From positions 1 through 5,696 of the IMG/VR virus record IMGVR_UViG_3300045988_033111: a stretch of DNA of 5,696 nt; one strand, 5' to 3'. The notes beneath the pieces were generated by a model that saw only the letters and a program-made list of their open reading frames with translations, was not told the origin of the DNA and did no database searches. Origin of the DNA: a virus. Within the stretch, counting starts at the first letter, position 1. Each line of letters begins with the position of its first letter. The translations under genes and the position numbers were made by a program. Shown here in pieces: positions 1 through 5,696 of the stretch.

Positions 1-55
1 AAAAAGCCATTGCGTCCCTAATCGAAAGAAACGCGGAAACAGATAAGTCATACGC
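1..55. repeat. Terminal redundancy of a circular assembly. 1..55 is identical to 5642..5696, giving a unit length of 5641 nt.
   Basis: The string aaaaagccattgcgtccctaatcgaaagaaacgcggaaacagataagtcatacgc occurs at both ends. The rep reading frame continues in phase across the junction. Confidence 0.95.
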
Positions 56-122
56 AGAGCAGCTAAAGGACAAGGAAGCATCCATGTCCAAAAAGATGAG
101 CAAAGCCAAAGGTGTATTTTGA
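1..122 (+). CDS. VP4: C-terminal end of replication initiator VP4, continuing the ORF that starts at 4744. Codons are phased at 3, 6, 9 and so on, with stop TGA at 120..122.
   Basis: Position 1 equals 5642, which is codon position 2 of the 4744 frame. Translation reads (E)KAIASLIERNAETDKSYAEQLKDKEASMSKKMSKAKGVF*. The non-redundant join 4744..5641 plus 1..122 is 1020 nt, or 339 aa. Confidence 0.9.
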   Translation, partial: KAIASLIERNAETDKSYAEQLKDKEASMSKKMSKAKGVF

Positions 123-184: not shown

Positions 185-190
185 ATATTG

Positions 191-231
191 ACATGCGCGC
201 GCGCGCACGTAATCGCGCACGCACGCGCATG
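191..231. repeat. Alternating purine-pyrimidine CG/CA tract that is prone to Z-DNA or hairpin formation.
   Basis: 191..211 and 214..231 alternate R-Y perfectly and include (GC)6 at 195..206. The ends catgcgcg (192..199) and cgcgcatg (224..231) are inverted repeats, and gcgcg (201..205) can pair with cgcgc (214..218). The tract is a GC-only island in AT-rich flanks. Confidence 0.8.
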
Positions 232-287
232 AGATTATCATTATTTATTATTAACTTGTTGTAGTCGTAATAGTAGGGAGTGTTGAA

Positions 288-371
288 ATGTTGAATACCA
301 TGAATTTTTATCCTTGGAACGATATTTTCTGGATTATTTTGATGTTGATACTTTTGTGGATAACTTGTTGA
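288..371 (+). CDS. Candidate 27-aa hydrophobic peptide, MLNTMNFYPWNDIFWIILMLILLWITC. It is uncertain because it overlaps the repeat array.
   Basis: ATG at 288 is preceded by GGGAG (276..280) with a 7-nt spacer. Stop TGA is at 369..371. The C-terminal 14 residues are strongly hydrophobic. It falls below the size cut-off of the ORF track. Confidence 0.25.
   Translation: MLNTMNFYPWNDIFWIILMLILLWITC
355..363 (+). promoter_or_regulatory. Perfect consensus DnaA box, TGTGGATAA (TTATCCACA on the - strand).
   Basis: Exact 9/9 match at 355..363. Near-matches are TGTGGAAAA at 448..456 (8/9) and cGTGGAAAA at 419..427 (7/9). Confidence 0.5.
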
Positions 372-579: not shown

Positions 580-608
580 TTGACAAATAAGCAAAGTTGT
601 GGTATAAT
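580..608 (+). promoter_or_regulatory. Consensus sigma-70/sigma-A promoter with an extended -10.
   Basis: TTGACA (580..585), a 17-nt spacer, and TATAAT (603..608) preceded by TGg (600..602), giving TGnTATAAT. An A/T-rich UP-like tract, actttttttcaaaaacc, lies at 561..577. Confidence 0.8.
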
Positions 609-634
609 CCAATTAAAGAAAGGGGATAAAGACT

Positions 635-811
635 ATGGAAACTTTAAGAGCAACGTACAAAGACCTTGACACAGAGACCTTGAGATGGATGGACTACAAA
701 TTCAAGCACTGCAACAGCGATTGCGAAAAATGCCCATGTAACGACATAAGCTACCGTTGTGAATACATCCACGCGCTAGCAAAAGACGAACTAAACAGAA
801 GAGAAAAATAA
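635..811 (+). CDS. 58-aa Cys/His-rich small protein of unknown function, possibly zinc-binding.
   Basis: ATG at 635 is preceded by AGGGGA (621..626) with an 8-nt spacer. Sequence: METLRATYKDLDTETLRWMDYKFKHCNSDCEKCPCNDISYRCEYIHALAKDELNRREK, stop TAA at 809..811. The metal-ligand pattern is HC-x3-C-x2-C-x-C-x6-C-x3-H. The ORF is framed by a consensus promoter and a terminator, and is below the ORF-track size cut-off. Confidence 0.65.
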   Translation: METLRATYKDLDTETLRWMDYKFKHCNSDCEKCPCNDISYRCEYIHALAKDELNRREK

Positions 812-817
812 TTTCAG

Positions 818-847
818 AACAGGGCTTGACAAGCCCTGTTTTTTTTG
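818..847 (+). terminator. Rho-independent terminator after the 58-aa ORF.
   Basis: 9-bp stem acagggctt (819..827) with aagccctgt (831..839) and a short loop, followed by a T run extending to 846. Confidence 0.8.
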
Positions 848-889
848 ATACAACATAAATAGTTAGACAGCGGAAAGAGCTGTTTTACA

Positions 890-1039
890 ATGCCATTTAT
901 ACAAAATAACTTAAGAAAGAAGGTGTCTGCTCTGTCTATCAAGGAAATCGACGCGCTGTTTAACAACATCCGCAAAATCTTGGCCATGCTGGACAAGATT
1001 TATCACGCAATAGAGGGTAACAACAAACCCGAGGAGTGA
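890..1039 (+). CDS. Candidate 49-aa helical protein, MPFIQNNLRKKVSALSIKEIDALFNNIRKILAMLDKIYHAIEGNNKPEE.
   Basis: ATG at 890 has a weak SD (ggaaagag, 872..879). Stop TGA is at 1037..1039, and its last codons GAGGAG form the SD of the next ORF. It shares an in-phase 15-nt repeat with the next ORF. Caveat: a promoter-like TAGACA-N16-TACAAT at 864..891 overlaps its start codon. Confidence 0.4.
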   Translation: MPFIQNNLRKKVSALSIKEIDALFNNIRKILAMLDKIYHAIEGNNKPEE

Positions 1040-1044
1040 CAAAA

Positions 1045-1266
1045 GTGAAAACATGGAACGTAAGAGACCAGACCGATACGAAACTCATGGAGGAATTGAC
1101 GCGAACCTACAAGGAAATCGACGCCGCTTACAAACTGCTACGACAGGCCGCAAAGTACGACGACGCAAAGTTTTACCTTGACATGGTCTTCAGAAAAAAA
1201 GCAAAAGCGACAGAAATTGAGGTAGAAATCCTCAGAAGGGAAATCAACCATGGGAAAGAGGAGTAA
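1045..1266 (+). CDS. 73-aa charged helical protein of unknown function. The ORF track extends it to GTG 1036.
   Basis: GTG at 1045 lies 8 nt downstream of GAGGAG (1031..1036). Sequence: KTWNVRDQTDTKLMEELTRTYKEIDAAYKLLRQAAKYDDAKFYLDMVFRKKAKATEIEVEILRREINHGKEE. The stop ends at 1266, overlapping the next gene by 17 nt. Confidence 0.6.
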   Translation: MKTWNVRDQTDTKLMEELTRTYKEIDAAYKLLRQAAKYDDAKFYLDMVFRKKAKATEIEVEILRREINHGKEE

Positions 1267-1369
1267 AGTCCGCAAATCCAAAGACGCAAAAATTTACAAC
1301 AAGACCGCACGAAAAACCAAGGCCATCAACCTTGGGAGCGGCGCAATGAGAGGGGGAATCCGCCTGTGA
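1250..1369 (+). CDS. 39-aa highly basic DNA-binding/packaging peptide, J-like and ORF8-like as in gokushoviruses.
   Basis: Sequence MGKRSKVRKSKDAKIYNKTARKTKAINLGSGAMRGGIRL has 12 K/R in 39 aa and the C-terminal MRGGIRL ending typical of small basic microvirus peptides. SD-like aaggga lies upstream, and stop TGA is at 1367..1369. It is below the ORF-track cut-off. Confidence 0.75.
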   Translation: MGKRSKVRKSKDAKIYNKTARKTKAINLGSGAMRGGIRL

Positions 1370-1464
1370 GCGCTGTATTCGCAAGCATGACTATGGCATT
1401 TCTCGCAGCGGGGTTCTACCTCGTCATTAACGCAATCAACATCATCAAAGACTGGTTCGAATAA
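1366..1464 (+). CDS. 32-aa hydrophobic single-pass membrane peptide, (M)SAVFASMTMAFLAAGFYLVINAINIIKDWFE.
   Basis: GTG at 1366 overlaps the upstream stop (GTGA) and sits 8 nt after gagaggggga (1348..1357). In-frame ATGs occur at 1387 and 1393. Stop TAA at 1462..1464 overlaps the SD of the next gene. It fills an otherwise unexplained 106-nt gap in a compact genome. Confidence 0.5.
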   Translation: MSAVFASMTMAFLAAGFYLVINAINIIKDWFE

Positions 1465-1475
1465 GGAGAAAAAAC

Positions 1476-1712
1476 ATGAACGTATACGGAATTTTCGATA
1501 GCTGTGTGATGGGCTACATCACCATCTTCACCGAACGAGAAGACAAGGTGGCGGAGCGCAATTTTAAAATTGCGCTCACCGACGAACACAACATGATGAG
1601 CAAGACGCCGAGCGACTATCGACTGGTGCGACTGGCAAAATTCGACGAGAAAACGGGCCTGTTTGAGAACGAAAAGGAGAACATTTTCGATGGCGTATCG
1701 CTCAGTAAGTAA
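1476..1712 (+). CDS. VP5: 78-aa conserved Microviridae non-structural protein (VP5/ORF5-like).
   Basis: AGGAG (1464..1468) lies 7 nt before ATG 1476. The pattern YGIFD...ERNFKIAL...PSDYRLVRLAKFDEKTG resembles the YxIFD / DYxL..G.FD..TG layout of gokushovirus ORF5-type proteins. This is recognition from memory, not a search. Confidence 0.7.
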   Translation: MNVYGIFDSCVMGYITIFTEREDKVAERNFKIALTDEHNMMSKTPSDYRLVRLAKFDEKTGLFENEKENIFDGVSLSK

Positions 1713-2184
1713 TTTCCGAGAAACTGCAACAGCAAAGCCGACCGAGGCCGGGGAAACCGTGAGGCGCACATACCTCTGGGAGCGCAACGAAAAAGGCGAA
1801 AAGGTGCTGAGACTCGACCAGACCATTGACCAACAGGCAGAAATCGACAGCTATCTCGAGGAAACCAAACTTGAAAACATCATCCGACGAGCAAGCATCG
1901 ACCCGGACATTGCAGCACGTATCAAACCGGACATCGGGGGCGGCATCCAAGACTTCACCGAGGCGCCGCAGAATCTGGCCGAACTCCAGAACATCATGAT
2001 GCGAGCAGAGCAAATCTGGGACGAGGTGCCGAAAGAAATCAAGCTCAAGTTTGACAACGACGTGGACAAATTCATCGCAAGTTTTGGAACCGTCGAATGG
2101 GCCAAAAATCTGGGCATCTACCAAGAAAACCAGGTCGAAACCAAAGCAACTGAGGCAACGGAGGCAACGGAGGCCAAAGAATGA
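1690..2184 (+). CDS. VP3: Internal scaffolding protein VP3, 164 aa from ATG 1690. The ORF track starts it at TTG 1663.
   Basis: AGGAG (1675..1679) lies 10 nt before ATG 1690. The block QDFTEAPQNLAELQNIMMRAEQIWDEVPKEIKLKFDNDVDKFIA matches the conserved gokushovirus VP3 core. Stop TGA (2182..2184) overlaps the VP1 ATG as ATGA. Confidence 0.8.
   Translation: MAYRSVSNFRETATAKPTEAGETVRRTYLWERNEKGEKVLRLDQTIDQQAEIDSYLEETKLENIIRRASIDPDIAARIKPDIGGGIQDFTEAPQNLAELQNIMMRAEQIWDEVPKEIKLKFDNDVDKFIASFGTVEWAKNLGIYQENQVETKATEATEATEAKE
2149..2175 (+). repeat. 9-nt tandem repeat x3 (ACNGAGGCN) encoding TEA-TEA-TEA at the VP3 C-terminus.
   Basis: actgaggca acggaggca acggaggcc. The last unit supplies GGAGG (2169..2173), 7 nt upstream of the VP1 ATG. 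Confidence 0.85.
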
Positions 2185-3821
2185 ACAGAAACAAAGATGC
2201 AGGATTCAACCAGGTACCGCGCCTGGACATCACGCGAAGTCGATTCAAACGGCGGCAGGACGTCAAATTAACGCTAAATGCAGGACAACTTATTCCGTTC
2301 TATGTGGATGAAGTGCTCCCGGGTGACACCTTCAGTATTGACCAAGCGGCGATTATCCGCATGACGACGCCCATTTTTCCGGTCATGGATAACTGTCACA
2401 TGGACATTTATTATTTTAACGTCCCTTGCAGAATCCTATGGAAAAACTTCAAACGATTCATGGGCGAAAACAATACGGGGCCATGGACACAGACTCAGGA
2501 GTACTACATTCCGCAGGTCAGAGTAACCGGCACCGCAGAAAAACCGGCACCTTATGAGGGCAGCATCCTTGACTACATGGGTATTCCGACCAAGGTAAGC
2601 AAGGGAGAAGATACGGCATTCACTATCAACGCGCTGCCCATGAGGGCGTATGCTATGATATGGCAGGAGTGGTTCAGAGACCAAAACGTGGATAACCCGG
2701 CCATCAACAGCGATGCAGACGCGACTATAAACTACACGGACGACGAGACCAAGGGCATGGACGCGGCAAAGCCGGATTTGGAGTACATTCTCCAGAACGC
2801 GTACACAGGCGGCAGACCTCTTCCGGTCAACAAGTACCACGACTATTTCACATCGGCTTTACCGAATCCGCAGAAAGGCCCTTCAGTACAACTTCCGCTG
2901 GAAGGAAACGCTCCAATATTCGGATATTCAGACGTCAATCGAACAGAATTAAGTACCACCGGAGTGCTGCAAAAAATCGAAAACCAAACCAGACCTTTAG
3001 GCATTGTAGGATACACACCCAACCAGACAGAAATCTACTTAGGCGCAAGAATGGACAACGTAACATCGGCAACCATCAATCAGCTGAGGCAAGCATTTCA
3101 AGTACAAAAATACTACGAACAGCTAGCACGCGGCGGCTCTCGCTACCGTGAGATGGTTTACTCGCTGTTCCACACCAAAATCAGCGATAAAACGGTACAA
3201 ATCCCGGAGTATCTGGGTGGAACACGTATCACCATCAACATGAGTCAGGTCATCCAGACCAGCGGGACAACGACGGAAAGCCCGCAGGGCAACACTGCAG
3301 CAGTAAGCGTTACGCCGTACAACGGCAGTATGTTCACCAAGAGCTTTGAAGAACACGGCTTTGTTATCGGGGTGTGCTGCATCCGGCATGACCATACCTA
3401 CCAACAGGGCTTAGAGCGTATGTGGAGCCGAAAAACCAATCTGGATTTCTATTACCCGGTCTTCGCAAATCTGGGAGAGCAAGCAATTCTCAAGAAAGAA
3501 CTGTACCTCACCGGAACAGCAACGGATGAACAGGCATTCGGCTATCAAGAAGCTTGGGCTGAATACCGGATGAAACCGAACCGCATCAGCGGCAAATTCC
3601 GCAGCAACGCGACCGGGACGCTGGACAGTTGGCACTACGGAGACAACTACACGGAAACGCCGAGCTTAAGCCAGGCATGGATGAAAGAAGGAGACTCCGA
3701 AATTCAGCGGACTCTGGCAGTGGACAACGAACCGCAGTTTATCATGGACACCATCATCGACAACACCAGCGTCAGACCGATGCCCATGTACAGCATCCCG
3801 GGACTCGTTGACCATCACTAA
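2181..3821 (+). CDS. VP1: Major capsid protein VP1 (Microviridae F-type jelly-roll capsid), 546 aa.
   Basis: Full-length ORF with hallmark gokushovirus VP1 blocks: [107 protein letters not shown] and [13 protein letters not shown]. Confidence 0.95.
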
Positions 3822-3836: not shown

Positions 3837-3865
3837 AGCCCGGGGCGACACCCCGGGCTATTTTT
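3837..3865 (+). terminator. GC-rich hairpin plus T tract between VP1 and VP2, a partial terminator or attenuator.
   Basis: 9-bp stem agcccgggg (3837..3845) with ccccgggct (3851..3859) and loop cgaca, then aTTTTT (3860..3865). The VP2 ATG follows immediately. Confidence 0.65.
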
Positions 3866-4744
3866 ATGGGACTCTTAACAACAATAGGATTACCACTGCT
3901 CAAAATGGCAATACCGAGCATTGCAGGAGCAGCAGCAAACAAGCTCTTTGGCACAAGCGGAAGCTACGGACAGCAAGGGCAATCTAACAGTCAAAGCAGC
4001 GGTTCCAGCTGGTCCCAAGGCACAAGCGACAGCGGAAGCACAAGCAGCGGAGGCACAAACGACGCTGTAAACAAAAGCATCGCAGCACTTGCAAACCAAC
4101 TAAGCCAAGGCAGCATGGCCGGACAGCAAAAATACAATCGCAATTCCATGCTTATGCAGATGGGTTATAATACCTTGTCGGCAATCCAGCAAGGCGTATA
4201 CAATCACATCGAGCAGCAAACAGCGATGAGCTACAACAGCGCCGAAGCCGCAAAAAACAGAGCATGGCAAGAGCAGATGAGTAACACATCCTACCAAAGA
4301 GCAGTCGAGGATATGAAAAAAGCTGGCATCAACCCTATCTTGGCATACACACAGGGCGGAGCAAGCACACCGAGCGGAGCGCAGGGAACAATCGGCAGCG
4401 CAAGCATGGGCATGGCATCCAGTAGCGCGCTGGGAGCAACGGCATTACCGGGCATCAAACAAGACGGCAGCTGGAGCCAACACAGCGAAGCATGGAGTCA
4501 TGCAGAAAACGCAGCACAGAGCATCCAGCAAGCTATCATGTCGAGCAGCACAAACCCTGTCAGACTCAGAGGAGACATGGAGCGCATTGCAGAGGCAGCA
4601 GCAGAAGGCGCGACGAACCTTAGAAAGACGATGGCAAGCGCACTCGCGAGCGACGAAGCAAAAGCCAACGCAAGAAACAGTCTCGAAAACATGAGAAGGA
4701 ACGGATTCACCGGCTACATGAGCATAAATCCGAGAGGTAAATAA
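3866..4744 (+). CDS. VP2: DNA pilot / minor capsid protein VP2, 292 aa.
   Basis: A hydrophobic N-terminus is followed by an S/G/Q-rich low-complexity segment (~3950..4070). The conserved block [24 protein letters not shown] is typical of gokushovirus VP2. Stop TAA (4742..4744) overlaps the rep ATG as TAATG. Confidence 0.85.
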
Positions 4745-5696
4745 TGGGATGCAATAAACCGCTAATCCGGTTTTATGTACCTCATGACAGAGAGGCGAGT
4801 GGGCGAGTGTACTCACTCGCCTCTTTTAACGAGATACACAAGACCAAAATGACGTACGAAAATTTAATGTACCGCAAAGATGTAATGTTGATACCATGCG
4901 GACAGTGTACAGGGTGCAGACTACGCAAACGCAAAGACTGGGCAACGCGGATGGAGCTGGAAGCATACGGCCACAGCAAAGAAAGCGTCTGGTTTATCAC
5001 GCTAACGTACGATGATGACCATGTACCAACGCAAGACACCGAAACAGGCGAAATCTACAAAGGTGGCATAAACATCTGGAAAGGCATCTCAGAGCGTCCA
5101 AGAACAACGCAAACGCTGAGCGTGGAGGATACCCAACTCTTCATCAAAAGGCTCAGAAAGGCCGTCAAAGAGCCTCTGAGATACTTTTTAGCCGGAGAGT
5201 ATGGAGACAACACGGCAAGACCACACTATCACATGATACTGTACGGGTGGCGTCCAGACGACTTAAAACCTATACACAAGCTATCCAGACACGGCCACTA
5301 CACAAGTGATAAGCTGGTCAAAATCTGGGGGCAAGGTGCAGTTGACATAGCACAGGCAACACCGGAGACATATAATTATGTTGCAGGATATGTAACCAAA
5401 AAGCTATACGGAAACGACAAAAAGCGTTACCAAAAAATGGGTTTAATACCTCCATTTTGCACAATGAGCCGAAAGCCGGGACTCGGAGACCAATGGTTTC
5501 AAGACCATCAAGAGCGACTCTGGCAACAGGGATACATACAGCTTACCAACGGCAAGAGAGCAGCCATCCCAGAATACTACTGGCGAAAACTGGAAGCGGA
5601 GAATCCTGAAAAAGCGTGGAGAATCAAACAGTATCGGCAAGAAAAAGCCATTGCGTCCCTAATCGAAAGAAACGCGGAAACAGATAAGTCATACGC
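4744..5696 (+). CDS. VP4: Replication initiator VP4 (HUH rolling-circle endonuclease). The ORF is open to the window end and continues at 1..122, 339 aa in total.
   Basis: GAGG (4734..4737) lies 6 nt before ATG 4744. Motifs: MGCNKPL start, CGQCTGCR, motif 1 FITLTY (4993..5010), HUH motif HYH (5224..5232) in RPHYHMILY, and the tyrosine motif Y-VAG-Y-VTKK (5377..5403). It has no stop inside the window, so it is absent from the ORF track. Confidence 0.92.
   Translation, partial: MGCNKPLIRFYVPHDREASGRVYSLASFNEIHKTKMTYENLMYRKDVMLIPCGQCTGCRLRKRKDWATRMELEAYGHSKESVWFITLTYDDDHVPTQDTETGEIYKGGINIWKGISERPRTTQTLSVEDTQLFIKRLRKAVKEPLRYFLAGEYGDNTARPHYHMILYGWRPDDLKPIHKLSRHGHYTSDKLVKIWGQGAVDIAQATPETYNYVAGYVTKKLYGNDKKRYQKMGLIPPFCTMSRKPGLGDQWFQDHQERLWQQGYIQLTNGKRAAIPEYYWRKLEAENPEKAWRIKQYRQEKAIASLIERNAETDKSY
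5642..5696. repeat. Second copy of the terminal redundancy, identical to 1..55.
   Basis: Exact 55-nt match to the window start. Confidence 0.95.

What the first reader, a model, noticed from the sequence alone, without database searches (positions are those of the whole stretch)
1366..1464. Unannotated 32-aa transmembrane peptide coupled to the J-like gene: candidate single-gene lysis or membrane effector
The sequence is (M)SAVFASMTMAFLAAGFYLVINAINIIKDWFE, one hydrophobic helix of ~25 residues with a short polar tail. Its GTG overlaps the upstream stop (GTGA) behind a G-rich SD, and its stop overlaps the SD of VP5, so the gap is fully used. Gokushoviruses lack a homolog of the phiX174 lysis protein E, and for most of them the lysis function is unassigned. 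A small membrane peptide in the late operon is a plausible candidate.
Basis: inference. Interest (0 to 1): 0.65.

Follow-up and report, generated by a model that had tools for sequence, protein, structure and literature searches.

The report
Accessory membrane micropeptide gene in gokushovirus
The 32-codon reading frame between the small DNA-binding protein gene and VP5 of this gut gokushovirus is a real, conserved gene for a one-helix membrane peptide, but about a third of close relatives have cleanly lost it, so it is an optional add-on (perhaps a lysis helper) and not the virus's essential lysis gene.

Summary
GTG 1366 overlaps the J-like stop (GTGA). The frame encodes MSAVFASMTMAFLAAGFYLVINAINIIKDWFE, and its TAA (1462-1464) overlaps the VP5 Shine-Dalgarno sequence.

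It is a real gene. Of 65 genomes in this clade, 41 carry the cassette in the same slot and 40 of those keep it open. It comes as two diverged alleles, 32-33 aa and 38 aa. pN/pS is 0.41-0.46 in frame, against 0.8-1.8 out of frame. Indels are in frame, the start codon is always valid, and the motif I-(D/N)-I-I-K-x-W is conserved. AlphaFold2 gives one helix, and hydrophobicity is in the top 0.4% of the genome.

It is also dispensable. In 24 of 65 close relatives it is missing cleanly, with VP5 starting at the same overlapping GTG. Losses interleave on the flank tree. These genomes have no substitute hydrophobic ORF and no peptidase.

Unrelated or distantly related hydrophobic micro-ORFs occupy the same post-J slot in other gokushovirus lineages. 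Intact micro-ORFs occur almost only in genomes without the M15 peptidase, though that pattern rests on few independent events.

Best reading: an accessory inner-membrane peptide made in step with late proteins, most likely a lysis enhancer or timer. It matches no Pfam, PHROG, NCBIfam, PADLOC or PDB family. Function is untested.

The parts
864..891 (+). Promoter-like site (TAGACA-16-TACAAT) at the head of the transcription unit that contains the micro-ORF
   Evidence: No terminator-like site on the + strand lies between here and 3837.
1250..1369 (+). J-like / VP8-type basic DNA-binding protein gene (39 aa, ends MRGGIRL). Its stop TGA is overlapped by the micro-ORF start.
   Evidence: phrog_10695, E=2e-8. 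It is 92-97% identical in relatives, with pN/pS 0.05-0.09.
1348..1357 (+). SD-like GAGAGGGGGA inside the J-like gene, 8 nt upstream of GTG 1366. It encodes the invariant RGG of J.
   Evidence: In cassette-less relatives the same element serves VP5.
1366..1464 (+). Micro-ORF: GTG start, 32 codons, TAA stop. Product: MSAVFASMTMAFLAAGFYLVINAINIIKDWFE.
   Evidence: It is conserved in frame in 40 of 41 cassette-bearing relatives. pN/pS is 0.41 (95% CI 0.25-0.63) for the 32-aa allele.
1369..1446 (+). Hydrophobic, uncharged helix (residues 2-27), the predicted membrane span
   Evidence: KD19 2.03; summed Hessa-scale dG about -0.15 kcal/mol. (helix over residues 2-31, pLDDT 95).
1435..1455 (+). Conserved juxtamembrane motif I-(D/N)-I-I-K-x-W (residues 24-30). 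I26, K28 and W30 are invariant across both alleles.
   Evidence: pN/pS of motif plus tail is 0.16, against 0.53 for the span.
1462..1469 (+). TAA stop of the micro-ORF overlapping the SD (AAGGAGA) of VP5
1476..1712 (+). VP5 (Phage_ORF5, PF20577). Here it has its own ATG and SD. In cassette-less relatives it starts at the GTG that overlaps the J stop.
3837..3859 (+). Strong terminator-like hairpin after VP1, the probable end of the late transcription unit

Best explanation
The ORF is a real accessory gene. It sits in a cassette of about 110 nt inserted exactly between the stop of the J-like/VP8 gene and the start of VP5.

Proposed mechanism:
- It is transcribed with the late morphogenesis genes.
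- It is translated by coupling to the abundant J protein (GTGA overlap, weak GTG start), so the peptide accumulates in proportion to late gene expression.
- The product is a single alpha-helix of 32 aa here (38 aa in the other allele) that inserts into the host cytoplasmic membrane. The N-terminus is probably outside, and the short K/R/W-containing tail sits at the cytoplasmic face.
- The virus can complete its cycle without it.
- Its most likely job is to perturb the envelope late in infection, accelerating, timing or otherwise enhancing host lysis and release. This is the accessory role that the M15 peptidase appears to fill in neighbouring gokushovirus lineages. It is not the sole lysis gene.

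What is shown: it is a coding gene under purifying selection, it has a hydrophobic helical product, it lies in the late operon with coupled initiation signals, and it has a presence/absence distribution with repeated loss.

What is inferred: membrane insertion and topology, and above all the lysis-enhancing role.
For: Coding gene:
- 41 of 65 clade genomes carry the cassette in the same slot. 40 are open, one is truncated, and one of the open ones has an in-frame 10-codon deletion.
- The start is always a valid start codon: GTG, once ATG, once TTG.
- pN/pS is 0.41 for allele A and 0.46 for allele B, with bootstrap CIs excluding 1. The other two frames give 0.8-1.8 and carry stops. The third codon position is the most variable.
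- Substitutions are hydrophobic-to-hydrophobic or small-to-small, and the motif I-(D/N)-I-I-K-x-W is kept.

Membrane helix.

Late operon without an intervening terminator.

Dispensability:
- 24 of 65 genomes lack it, and their VP5 starts at the same overlapping GTG.
- Absences interleave with allele B on the J+VP5 tree.
- The cassette-less junction equals allele B with the DNA between the two TGA triplets removed.

Link to lysis:
- No M15-type peptidase occurs in any of the 65 genomes. 73 of 80 genomes of the neighbouring clade have one, and none of the 75 evaluable genomes there has a micro-ORF.
- In the L120 group, three genomes with peptidase lack the micro-ORF, one with peptidase holds only a decayed remnant, and the one without peptidase has an intact 33-aa hydrophobic micro-ORF.
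- Other hydrophobic micro-ORF families occupy the same coupled post-J slot in unrelated gokushoviruses.
- The ORF meets the SD, TMD and 25-codon criteria used for sgl candidates (PMC7693330). A 37-residue single-TMD lysis protein exists (Lys-M; bioRxiv 10.1101/2023.05.22.541694).
Against: - There is no experimental data of any kind, and the host is unknown. No prophage or relative was found in 185,579 species genomes.
- 24 genomes have neither the micro-ORF nor a peptidase, so whatever lyses the host in this clade does not need this gene.
- The peptidase/micro-ORF complementarity rests on very few independent evolutionary events. It also has an exception: L122 carries both.
- Only about 1 in 7 ssRNA-phage ORFs that met the same SD/TMD/length criteria had any lytic or toxic effect in E. 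coli (PMC7693330).
- The predicted insertion energy is only marginal, a summed Hessa-scale value near 0 (scale values from memory).
- The tail charge is weak in allele A (-1 in this window), so topology is uncertain.
- Synonymous variation is low in the C-terminal motif codons. Part of that conservation could therefore be at the RNA level, upstream of the VP5 start.
Confidence: 0.4

Rival explanations
1. Primary single-gene lysis protein. The peptide is the lysis effector of the genomes that carry it. It would either block a membrane step of cell-wall synthesis, like phiX174 E or Lys-M, or form lesions. Relatives without it would use a different, unrecognised lysis gene.
For: - It has the size, single TMD, SD and late expression expected.
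- The clade lacks a peptidase, and gokushoviruses lack E (PMC7062461).
- Invariant interface residues K28 and W30 suggest a specific partner.
- In ssRNA phages, close relatives can carry lysis genes at different places, and such genes turn over quickly (PMC7693330).
Against: - The cassette is missing cleanly from 24 of 65 close relatives, with several independent losses.
- Those genomes carry no alternative coding hydrophobic small ORF.
- All other small ORFs (orf890, orf1036) are shared by carriers and non-carriers.
- A six-gene gokushovirus without such a gene lyses E. coli (PMC7062461).
Confidence: 0.15
2. Conflict gene. The membrane peptide blocks DNA delivery by superinfecting relatives (superinfection exclusion aimed at the VP2 pilot tube or its receptor), or it counters or evades a host membrane-associated defence.
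For: - It has a patchy presence/absence pattern, two deeply diverged alleles, and a pN/pS four to nine times that of the flanking genes. These are typical signatures of conflict genes.
- Many known exclusion proteins are small membrane proteins (general knowledge, not tested here).
Against: - No similarity to any PADLOC, PHROG or Pfam family.
- The allele does not track VP2 or VP1 lineages in any obvious way.
- A relaxed pN/pS is also expected for any transmembrane helix.
- It does not explain the apparent complementarity with peptidase genes.
Confidence: 0.2
3. Translational spacer or leader. The cassette matters because it uncouples VP5 from J and gives VP5 its own ATG and strong SD. The peptide itself has no function.
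For: - Cassette-less genomes start VP5 at the coupled GTG. Cassette genomes give VP5 an ATG with AAGGAG.
- Synonymous diversity is low in the last codons before the VP5 RBS.
Against: - There is frame-specific purifying selection over the whole ORF, including the N-terminal two thirds (pN/pS 0.51-0.53).
- Hydrophobicity is maintained across two alleles that are only 28-41% identical.
- At least three further, unrelated hydrophobic peptides sit in the same slot elsewhere.
- The frame relation to VP5 is not conserved: the offset is 110 nt here and 111 nt in L007.
Confidence: 0.08
4. Morphogenesis helper. The peptide tethers replication, packaging or the VP2 pilot protein to the membrane and so raises yield. 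This resembles the non-essential small protein K of phiX174, which raises burst size (from memory).
For: It lies among morphogenesis genes (J, VP5, VP3, VP1) in one operon, and it is dispensable.
Against: There is no evidence for co-variation with any structural gene, and the core morphogenesis genes are the same with and without it.
Confidence: 0.1
5. Not a gene: a chance open frame in an intergenic spacer.
For: A 31-codon interior stays open in 20% of shuffles. The mRNA fold is unremarkable (z = -1.36).
Against: - It is open in 40 of 41 carriers, and pN/pS CIs exclude 1 only in this frame.
- As a control, a second conserved hydrophobic ORF in the same genomes (288-371) fails exactly these tests, with 11 internal stops and 4 indels among 60 relatives.
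Confidence: 0.03

Closest known systems
phiX174 lysis protein E (Bullavirinae; Pfam Microvir_lysis)
   Same: It is a small membrane protein of a microvirus with one N-terminal transmembrane helix. It is expressed from the abundant late mRNA at a low relative rate.
   Different: - E is 91 aa, overprinted inside scaffold gene D, and has an essential proline in the helix. It is present in all phiX-like phages and essential for lysis. These facts are from established knowledge.
- This peptide is 32-38 aa and free-standing. No allele in the A2 alignment contains a proline. It is absent from a third of close relatives.
- It has no sequence similarity to any Pfam family.
Small single-gene lysis proteins of ssRNA phages (e.g. 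37-residue Lys-M, which blocks MurJ)
   Same: It has the same size class and one TMD. It meets the same candidate criteria of SD, TMD and at least 25 codons (PMC7693330; 10.1101/2023.05.22.541694). The family is lineage-restricted and evolves fast.
   Different: There is no homology, and the target and phenotype are unknown. Sgl genes are needed by every phage that relies on them, whereas this gene is optional within one clade.
Holins / pinholins
   Same: It is a small helical membrane protein with a charged C-terminal tail that would accumulate during late gene expression.
   Different: It is far below the usual holin size. No endolysin gene is present in any of the 65 clade genomes. Peptidase-bearing gokushoviruses almost never have the micro-ORF.
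phiX174 protein K (non-essential small membrane-associated protein that raises burst size; from memory)
   Same: It is a dispensable small hydrophobic protein of a microvirus, made with other phage proteins.
   Different: K is overprinted across genes A, B and C and has no sequence resemblance. Its mechanism is itself unclear.
Type I toxin peptides (Fst/Ldr, TisB, BsrG and similar)
   Same: It is a 20-40 aa peptide with one hydrophobic helix followed by a short charged tail.
   Different: There is no antisense RNA context and no family match. It is encoded by a lytic ssDNA virus inside a structural operon.

Membership tests
phiX174 E lysis protein family (Microvir_lysis) | Sequence match to the family profile | tested here: not met
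   Pfam scans of both alleles and of the neighbour-clade peptides found no such hit.
phiX174 E lysis protein family (Microvir_lysis) | Overprinted within the scaffold gene, with an essential proline in the TMD | tested here: not met
   The ORF is free-standing between J and VP5. None of the 34 unique A/B-allele variants contains a proline.
Single-gene lysis (Sgl) proteins, defined by function | Expression alone causes host lysis without a muralytic enzyme | not testable with these tools
   Needs inducible expression in a suitable host.
Single-gene lysis (Sgl) proteins, defined by function | Candidate criteria: at least 25 codons, a plausible SD, a predicted TMD | tested here: met
   Criteria are from PMC7693330.
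Single-gene lysis (Sgl) proteins, defined by function | Needed by, and so retained in, every closely related lytic genome that lacks another lysis gene | tested here: not met
   24 of 65 genomes lack it and have neither a peptidase nor another coding hydrophobic ORF.
Holins | At least one TMD and a charged, usually basic, C-terminal tail | tested here: inconclusive
   One TMD is present. Tail net charge is -1 in this window, mostly +1 or 0 elsewhere in allele A, and -1 to +3 in allele B.
Holins | Encoded with an endolysin that it releases | tested here: not met
   No peptidase or endolysin was found in 65 clade genomes. The micro-ORF is absent from 75 of 75 evaluable genomes in the neighbouring clade, where 73 of 80 loci carry the peptidase.
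Type I toxin-antitoxin peptides | Overlapping or adjacent antisense RNA antitoxin | tested here: inconclusive
   No Rfam family matches anywhere in the window. No promoter-like site was found on the minus strand near 1366-1464. No dedicated search was done.
Gokushovirus post-VP8 coupled micro-ORFs (grouping proposed here) | Start codon overlapping the stop of the J-like/VP8 gene, 19-42 codons, one hydrophobic helix, immediately followed by the next core gene | tested here: met
   The window meets it. So do alleles A and B, L121 and L122, and a 27-28 aa family found at 12 sites in environmental contigs.

The most novel reading that the evidence does not exclude
The slot directly after the VP8/J gene is a subfamily-wide hotspot where gokushoviruses keep, swap and reinvent translationally coupled membrane micropeptides. 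These peptides would be the long-missing lysis effectors, or lysis timers, of gokushoviruses. They would turn over as sgl genes do in ssRNA phages and be interchangeable with acquired M15 peptidases.
Probability: 0.15. Interest if true: 0.8.

Novelty: new member of a known kind. Interest (0 to 1): 0.5.

Why it matters
How gokushoviruses lyse their hosts is an acknowledged gap. They are among the most abundant ssDNA phages of the gut. They lack the phiX174 E gene, and only some carry a peptidase.

This work gives a defined, conserved and easily synthesised candidate membrane effector. It comes with two natural alleles and many natural knock-outs in near-isogenic backgrounds, which makes the question directly testable.

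It also shows that genes of 27-42 codons are systematically missed in microvirus annotation. None of the nine GenBank relatives annotates this one. The position after the DNA-binding protein gene repeatedly hosts such peptides.

If the peptide targets a cell-envelope step, it would be a new 'protein antibiotic' lead. If it does not, it still shows that a 5.6-kb virus can afford an optional membrane microprotein.

Tried and rejected
- **Other small hydrophobic ORF in the genome (288-371, MLNTMNFYPWNDIFWIILMLILLWITC).** I considered it as an alternative lysis candidate shared by carriers and non-carriers. It is rejected as a gene: among 60 relatives there are 11 internal stops, 4 indels and 2 lost starts, plus lysines inside the 'helix'. 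It is probably a conserved DNA element.
- **Readthrough or frameshift fusion of the peptide to VP5.** Rejected, because the frame offset between the two starts is not conserved (110 nt here, 111 nt in L007).
- **Conserved RNA structure or known RNA family over 1340-1490.** The fold z-score is -1.36, and there are no Rfam hits.
- **A conserved helix face (helical periodicity of conservation).** Not significant, p = 0.08 and 0.23, so I make no claim about a packing face.
- **Family assignment.** Pfam, PHROGs, NCBIfam, PADLOC and a PDB profile search gave only sub-threshold noise.
- **Wider homologues.**
  - phmmer against 1.84 billion representatives found one protein, 91% identical.
  - The motif scan of IMG/VR returned only this clade.
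  - A motif scan for the L122-type peptide gave only chance hits.
- **Host.** No relative of VP1 or of the peptide was found in 185,579 species genomes.
- **Tool limits.** The search for homologous proteins refuses queries under 40 aa. The search for related loci refuses single short peptides.
- **Peptidase association in the 110 diverse contigs.** Not informative, because only one contig had a detectable peptidase.

Full report
**Context.** The window is a complete circular gokushovirus genome of about 5,640 nt; bases 1-56 repeat 5641-5696.
- Its genes are VP4 (4744 through the junction to about 121) and three small ORFs (635-811, 890-1039, 1036-1266).
- These are followed by a 39-aa J-like/VP8-type basic protein (1250-1369; phrog_10695) and the ORF in question (1366-1464).
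- Then come VP5 (1476-1712; PF20577), VP3 (to 2184; Chlamy_scaf), VP1 (2181-3821) and VP2 (3866-4744).
- A promoter-like site at 864-891 and a strong terminator-like hairpin at 3837-3859 bracket orf890, orf1036, J, the micro-ORF, VP5, VP3 and VP1. No + strand terminator lies in between.
- The closest GenBank records are gut 'Gokushovirus WZ-2015a' and Microviridae sp. genomes from human, monkey and pig faeces, at 82-91% nucleotide identity. None annotates anything between J and VP5.

**The observation.**
- GTG 1366 overlaps the J stop (ctGTGA).
- GAGAGGGGGA lies 8 nt upstream.
- The product is (M)SAVFASMTMAFLAAGFYLVINAINIIKDWFE.
- TAA 1462-1464 overlaps the AAGGAG that serves the VP5 ATG at 1476.
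- The peptide has a 27-residue uncharged run. Its hydrophobicity is reached by only 0.37% of all six-frame 19-mers of the genome.
- AlphaFold2 models one continuous helix over residues 2-31 at pLDDT 95.
- The open frame by itself is not remarkable, since 20% of shuffles stay open. The case rests on comparison with relatives.

**Is it a gene?** I collected 64 relatives: 9 from GenBank and 55 IMG/VR contigs found through VP5. I then located the J end and VP5 start in each.
- In all 65 genomes the J stop is TGA and is overlapped by a valid start codon.
- 41 genomes carry an insert of about 88-126 nt at exactly this point.
- In 40 of them the frame from the overlapping start is open to a stop just before the VP5 SD.
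- There are two allelic classes:
  - Allele A is 32-33 aa (24 genomes, including the window).
  - Allele B is 38 aa (15 genomes; e.g. MNIMIAVGTGATIIAMCSAAFALIAMGIDIIKNWRKSK).
  - One further B-derived copy has an in-frame 10-codon deletion.
  - One A-type copy is truncated to 21 aa.
- A and B are only 28-41% identical. They share the hydrophobic character and the C-terminal motif I-(D/N)-I-I-K-x-W, with I26, K28 and W30 invariant.
- Nei-Gojobori pN/pS is 0.41 (bootstrap 95% CI 0.25-0.63) within A and 0.46 (0.30-0.70) within B.
- The same alignments read in the other two frames give 0.8-1.8 and contain stops. Third codon positions vary most.
- The flanking genes are far more constrained (J 0.05-0.09, VP5 0.10-0.16). 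The micro-ORF is therefore under real but relaxed purifying selection, as expected for a transmembrane helix.
- A built-in negative control exists. A second conserved hydrophobic ORF (288-371) fails the same tests, with 11 internal stops and 4 indels in 60 relatives.
- A one-residue variant of the window peptide is in NCBI nr as a 'hypothetical protein' of a Microviridae MAG, and small clusters exist in the large protein collection. Gene callers have therefore occasionally picked it up.

**Is it essential?** It is not. In 24 of the 65 genomes the cassette is absent altogether.
- The same GTG (or ATG) that overlaps the J stop then opens VP5 directly, as (V)S-x-N-V-Y-G....
- That junction is what results if the DNA between the TGA of the J stop and the TGA within the ..ATGAGC.. 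start of allele-B-type VP5 is removed. It is therefore a one-step deletion across a 3-nt repeat.
- On a tree of the flanking J+VP5 sequence, allele A is nearly monophyletic. Allele B is paraphyletic with cassette-less genomes interleaved, which implies several independent losses. Status is scattered on VP1 and VP2 trees, consistent with recombination.
- Cassette-less lineages are themselves diverse and under purifying selection, so they are viable viruses.
- A scan of all + strand ORFs of at least 20 codons found no other small hydrophobic ORF in these genomes except the non-coding 288-371 element. None of the 65 genomes encodes an M15-type peptidase.
- The literature agrees that gokushoviruses lack an E-like gene. 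It also shows that a six-gene enterogokushovirus (VP4, VP5, VP3, VP1, VP2, VP8) lyses E. coli (PMC7062461). Core genes can therefore suffice for lysis by an unknown route.

**Wider distribution.** The peptide family as such is confined to this clade.
- A motif scan of IMG/VR, phmmer against 1.84 billion representatives, and a scan of 185,579 species genomes found nothing further.
- There is no Pfam, PHROG, NCBIfam, PADLOC or PDB match.

The slot, however, is used elsewhere.
- In neighbouring gut clades (VP5 30-37% identical), KT264793 (L122) has a 39-aa peptide, MITFLAIMFSMIACYAIIVGSVYLTIMMVDDIKKWRNEK. It starts at the same GTGA overlap and carries a recognisably related D-D-I-K-K-W tail.
- MG945382 (L121) has a different 33-aa hydrophobic peptide there.
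- One IMG/VR genome (L208) holds a decayed remnant of the L122 type.
- Among 110 diverse IMG/VR gokushovirus contigs selected only for 'MRGGIRL-stop overlapped by GTG', a further family of 27-28 aa peptides recurs 12 times directly after the J-like gene, followed there by VP4. The consensus is M-x-x-F-K-K-x-L-A-W-A-G-W-V-I-A-A-L-Q-G-V-L-S-Q-L-P-Q.
- That family also shows a frame-specific pN/pS of 0.39-0.69. Three singleton hydrophobic micro-ORFs turned up as well.

**Relation to peptidases.** Accessory M15 peptidases are the only lysis-associated genes recognised so far in gokushoviruses (PMC3394797, PMC9239249).
- In the neighbouring clade sampled through its J protein, 73 of 80 loci carry the peptidase, and 0 of 75 evaluable loci have a micro-ORF.
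- In the window's clade, 0 of 65 have the peptidase and 41 of 65 have the cassette.
- Within the small L120 group, the three genomes with peptidase lack the micro-ORF. One genome with peptidase has only the remnant. The one genome without peptidase has an intact micro-ORF.
- L122 has both.
- This looks like complementarity, and it is the only comparative hint to function. It rests on a handful of independent events and is not corrected for phylogeny.

**Interpretation.**
- Shown: it is a translationally coupled, conserved, dispensable gene for a hydrophobic helical 32-38 aa peptide in the late operon.
- Inferred, insertion and timing:
  - The peptide inserts into the cytoplasmic membrane. The summed insertion energy is marginal, about 0 to -1.8 kcal/mol.
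  - Topology is guessed as N-out/C-in from the basic tail of allele B.
  - Its amount tracks J synthesis.
- Inferred, function:
  - It acts on the envelope late in infection.
  - I rank 'accessory lysis enhancer or timer' first (about 0.4), because it reconciles dispensability with the peptidase pattern and the precedent of tiny Sgl peptides (PMC7693330; 10.1101/2023.05.22.541694).
  - The rivals are a conflict or exclusion function (0.2), a primary lysis gene (0.15), a morphogenesis helper (0.1), a mere spacer for VP5 translation (0.08) and no gene at all (0.03).
- The base rate is sobering. Only about one in seven ssRNA-phage ORFs with an SD, a TMD and at least 25 codons had any effect when expressed (PMC7693330).

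**Verdict.** The ORF is a new, family-less member of a known kind, the small phage-encoded membrane peptides. It has an unusually clean natural presence/absence series and sits in a slot that recurrently hosts such peptides. That makes it a good experimental handle on gokushovirus lysis, but the evidence argues against it being the essential lysis gene.

Noticed in passing
window 288-371 (+), within the non-coding stretch 121-634: There is a second small hydrophobic ORF of 27 aa, MLNTMNFYPWNDIFWIILMLILLWITC. It is highly conserved at the DNA level in 60 relatives but carries internal stops, indels or lysines in many, so it is not a gene. The region contains repeated TTGTTGAAA(T/G)TGT-like motifs (about 283-300, 364-385, 437-455). 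It may be a replication or regulatory element.
   Followed up: partly
window 580-842 (+): A perfect sigma-70-type promoter with an extended -10 (TTGACA-17-TGnTATAAT, 580-608) drives a 58-aa cysteine-rich ORF (635-811; CxxxC, CxC and further Cys). A terminator-like hairpin follows at 816-842, making a self-contained mini transcription unit. The ORF is detectable in only about 17 of 65 clade genomes and matches no family.
   Followed up: partly
window 190-235: A long alternating purine-pyrimidine, GC-rich run (gcgcgcgcgcacgtaatcgcgcacgcacgcgcatg) follows VP4. In relatives it produces spurious His/Ala-rich ORFs such as MHAHAHVIAHAHVH... Its function is unknown.
   Followed up: no
window 1-56 and 5641-5696: This is an exact terminal repeat. 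The window is a circular genome of about 5,640 nt cut inside VP4.
   Followed up: yes
L220, L237, L268-L270, L281, L290, L292, L297, L309, L320 (IMG/VR contigs), directly after the J-like/VP8 stop: This is an unrelated recurrent 27-28 aa micro-ORF family (MxxFKKxLAWAGWVIAALQGVLSQLPQ-like). It starts at the same GTGA overlap and is followed by VP4. Frame-specific pN/pS is 0.39-0.69. It suggests that the post-VP8 slot is a general site for coupled hydrophobic micropeptides in gokushoviruses.
   Followed up: partly
L121 2290-2391; L122 5057-5176; L208 around 900-960: Neighbour-clade genomes carry other peptides in the same slot: L121 has 33 aa (MIEMASAITVICCGVAIIMMAVRMMMDKNKEDK) and L122 has 39 aa with a DDIKKW tail. 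L208 keeps only a decayed remnant of the L122 type, and it also has a peptidase.
   Followed up: partly
whole genomes: window clade versus L128-L207: M15-type peptidase genes are absent from all 65 genomes of the window's clade. They are present in 73 of 80 loci of the neighbouring clade, upstream of the J-like gene. How the 24 genomes with neither a peptidase nor the micro-ORF lyse their host is unexplained.
   Followed up: partly
window 890-1039 and 1036-1266 (+): Two small soluble helical ORFs of 49 and 76 aa (the latter begins KTWNVRDQ) are conserved across this clade, and more distantly in the neighbouring gut clades. They match no family and are not annotated in most GenBank relatives.
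   Followed up: no
window 1340-1435 (RNA): The minimum-free-energy fold pairs the SD-like GAGAGGGGGA with UCUACCUC inside the micro-ORF and encloses the GTG start. The stability is not significant (z = -1.36), so I did not pursue it as a regulatory hairpin.
   Followed up: partly
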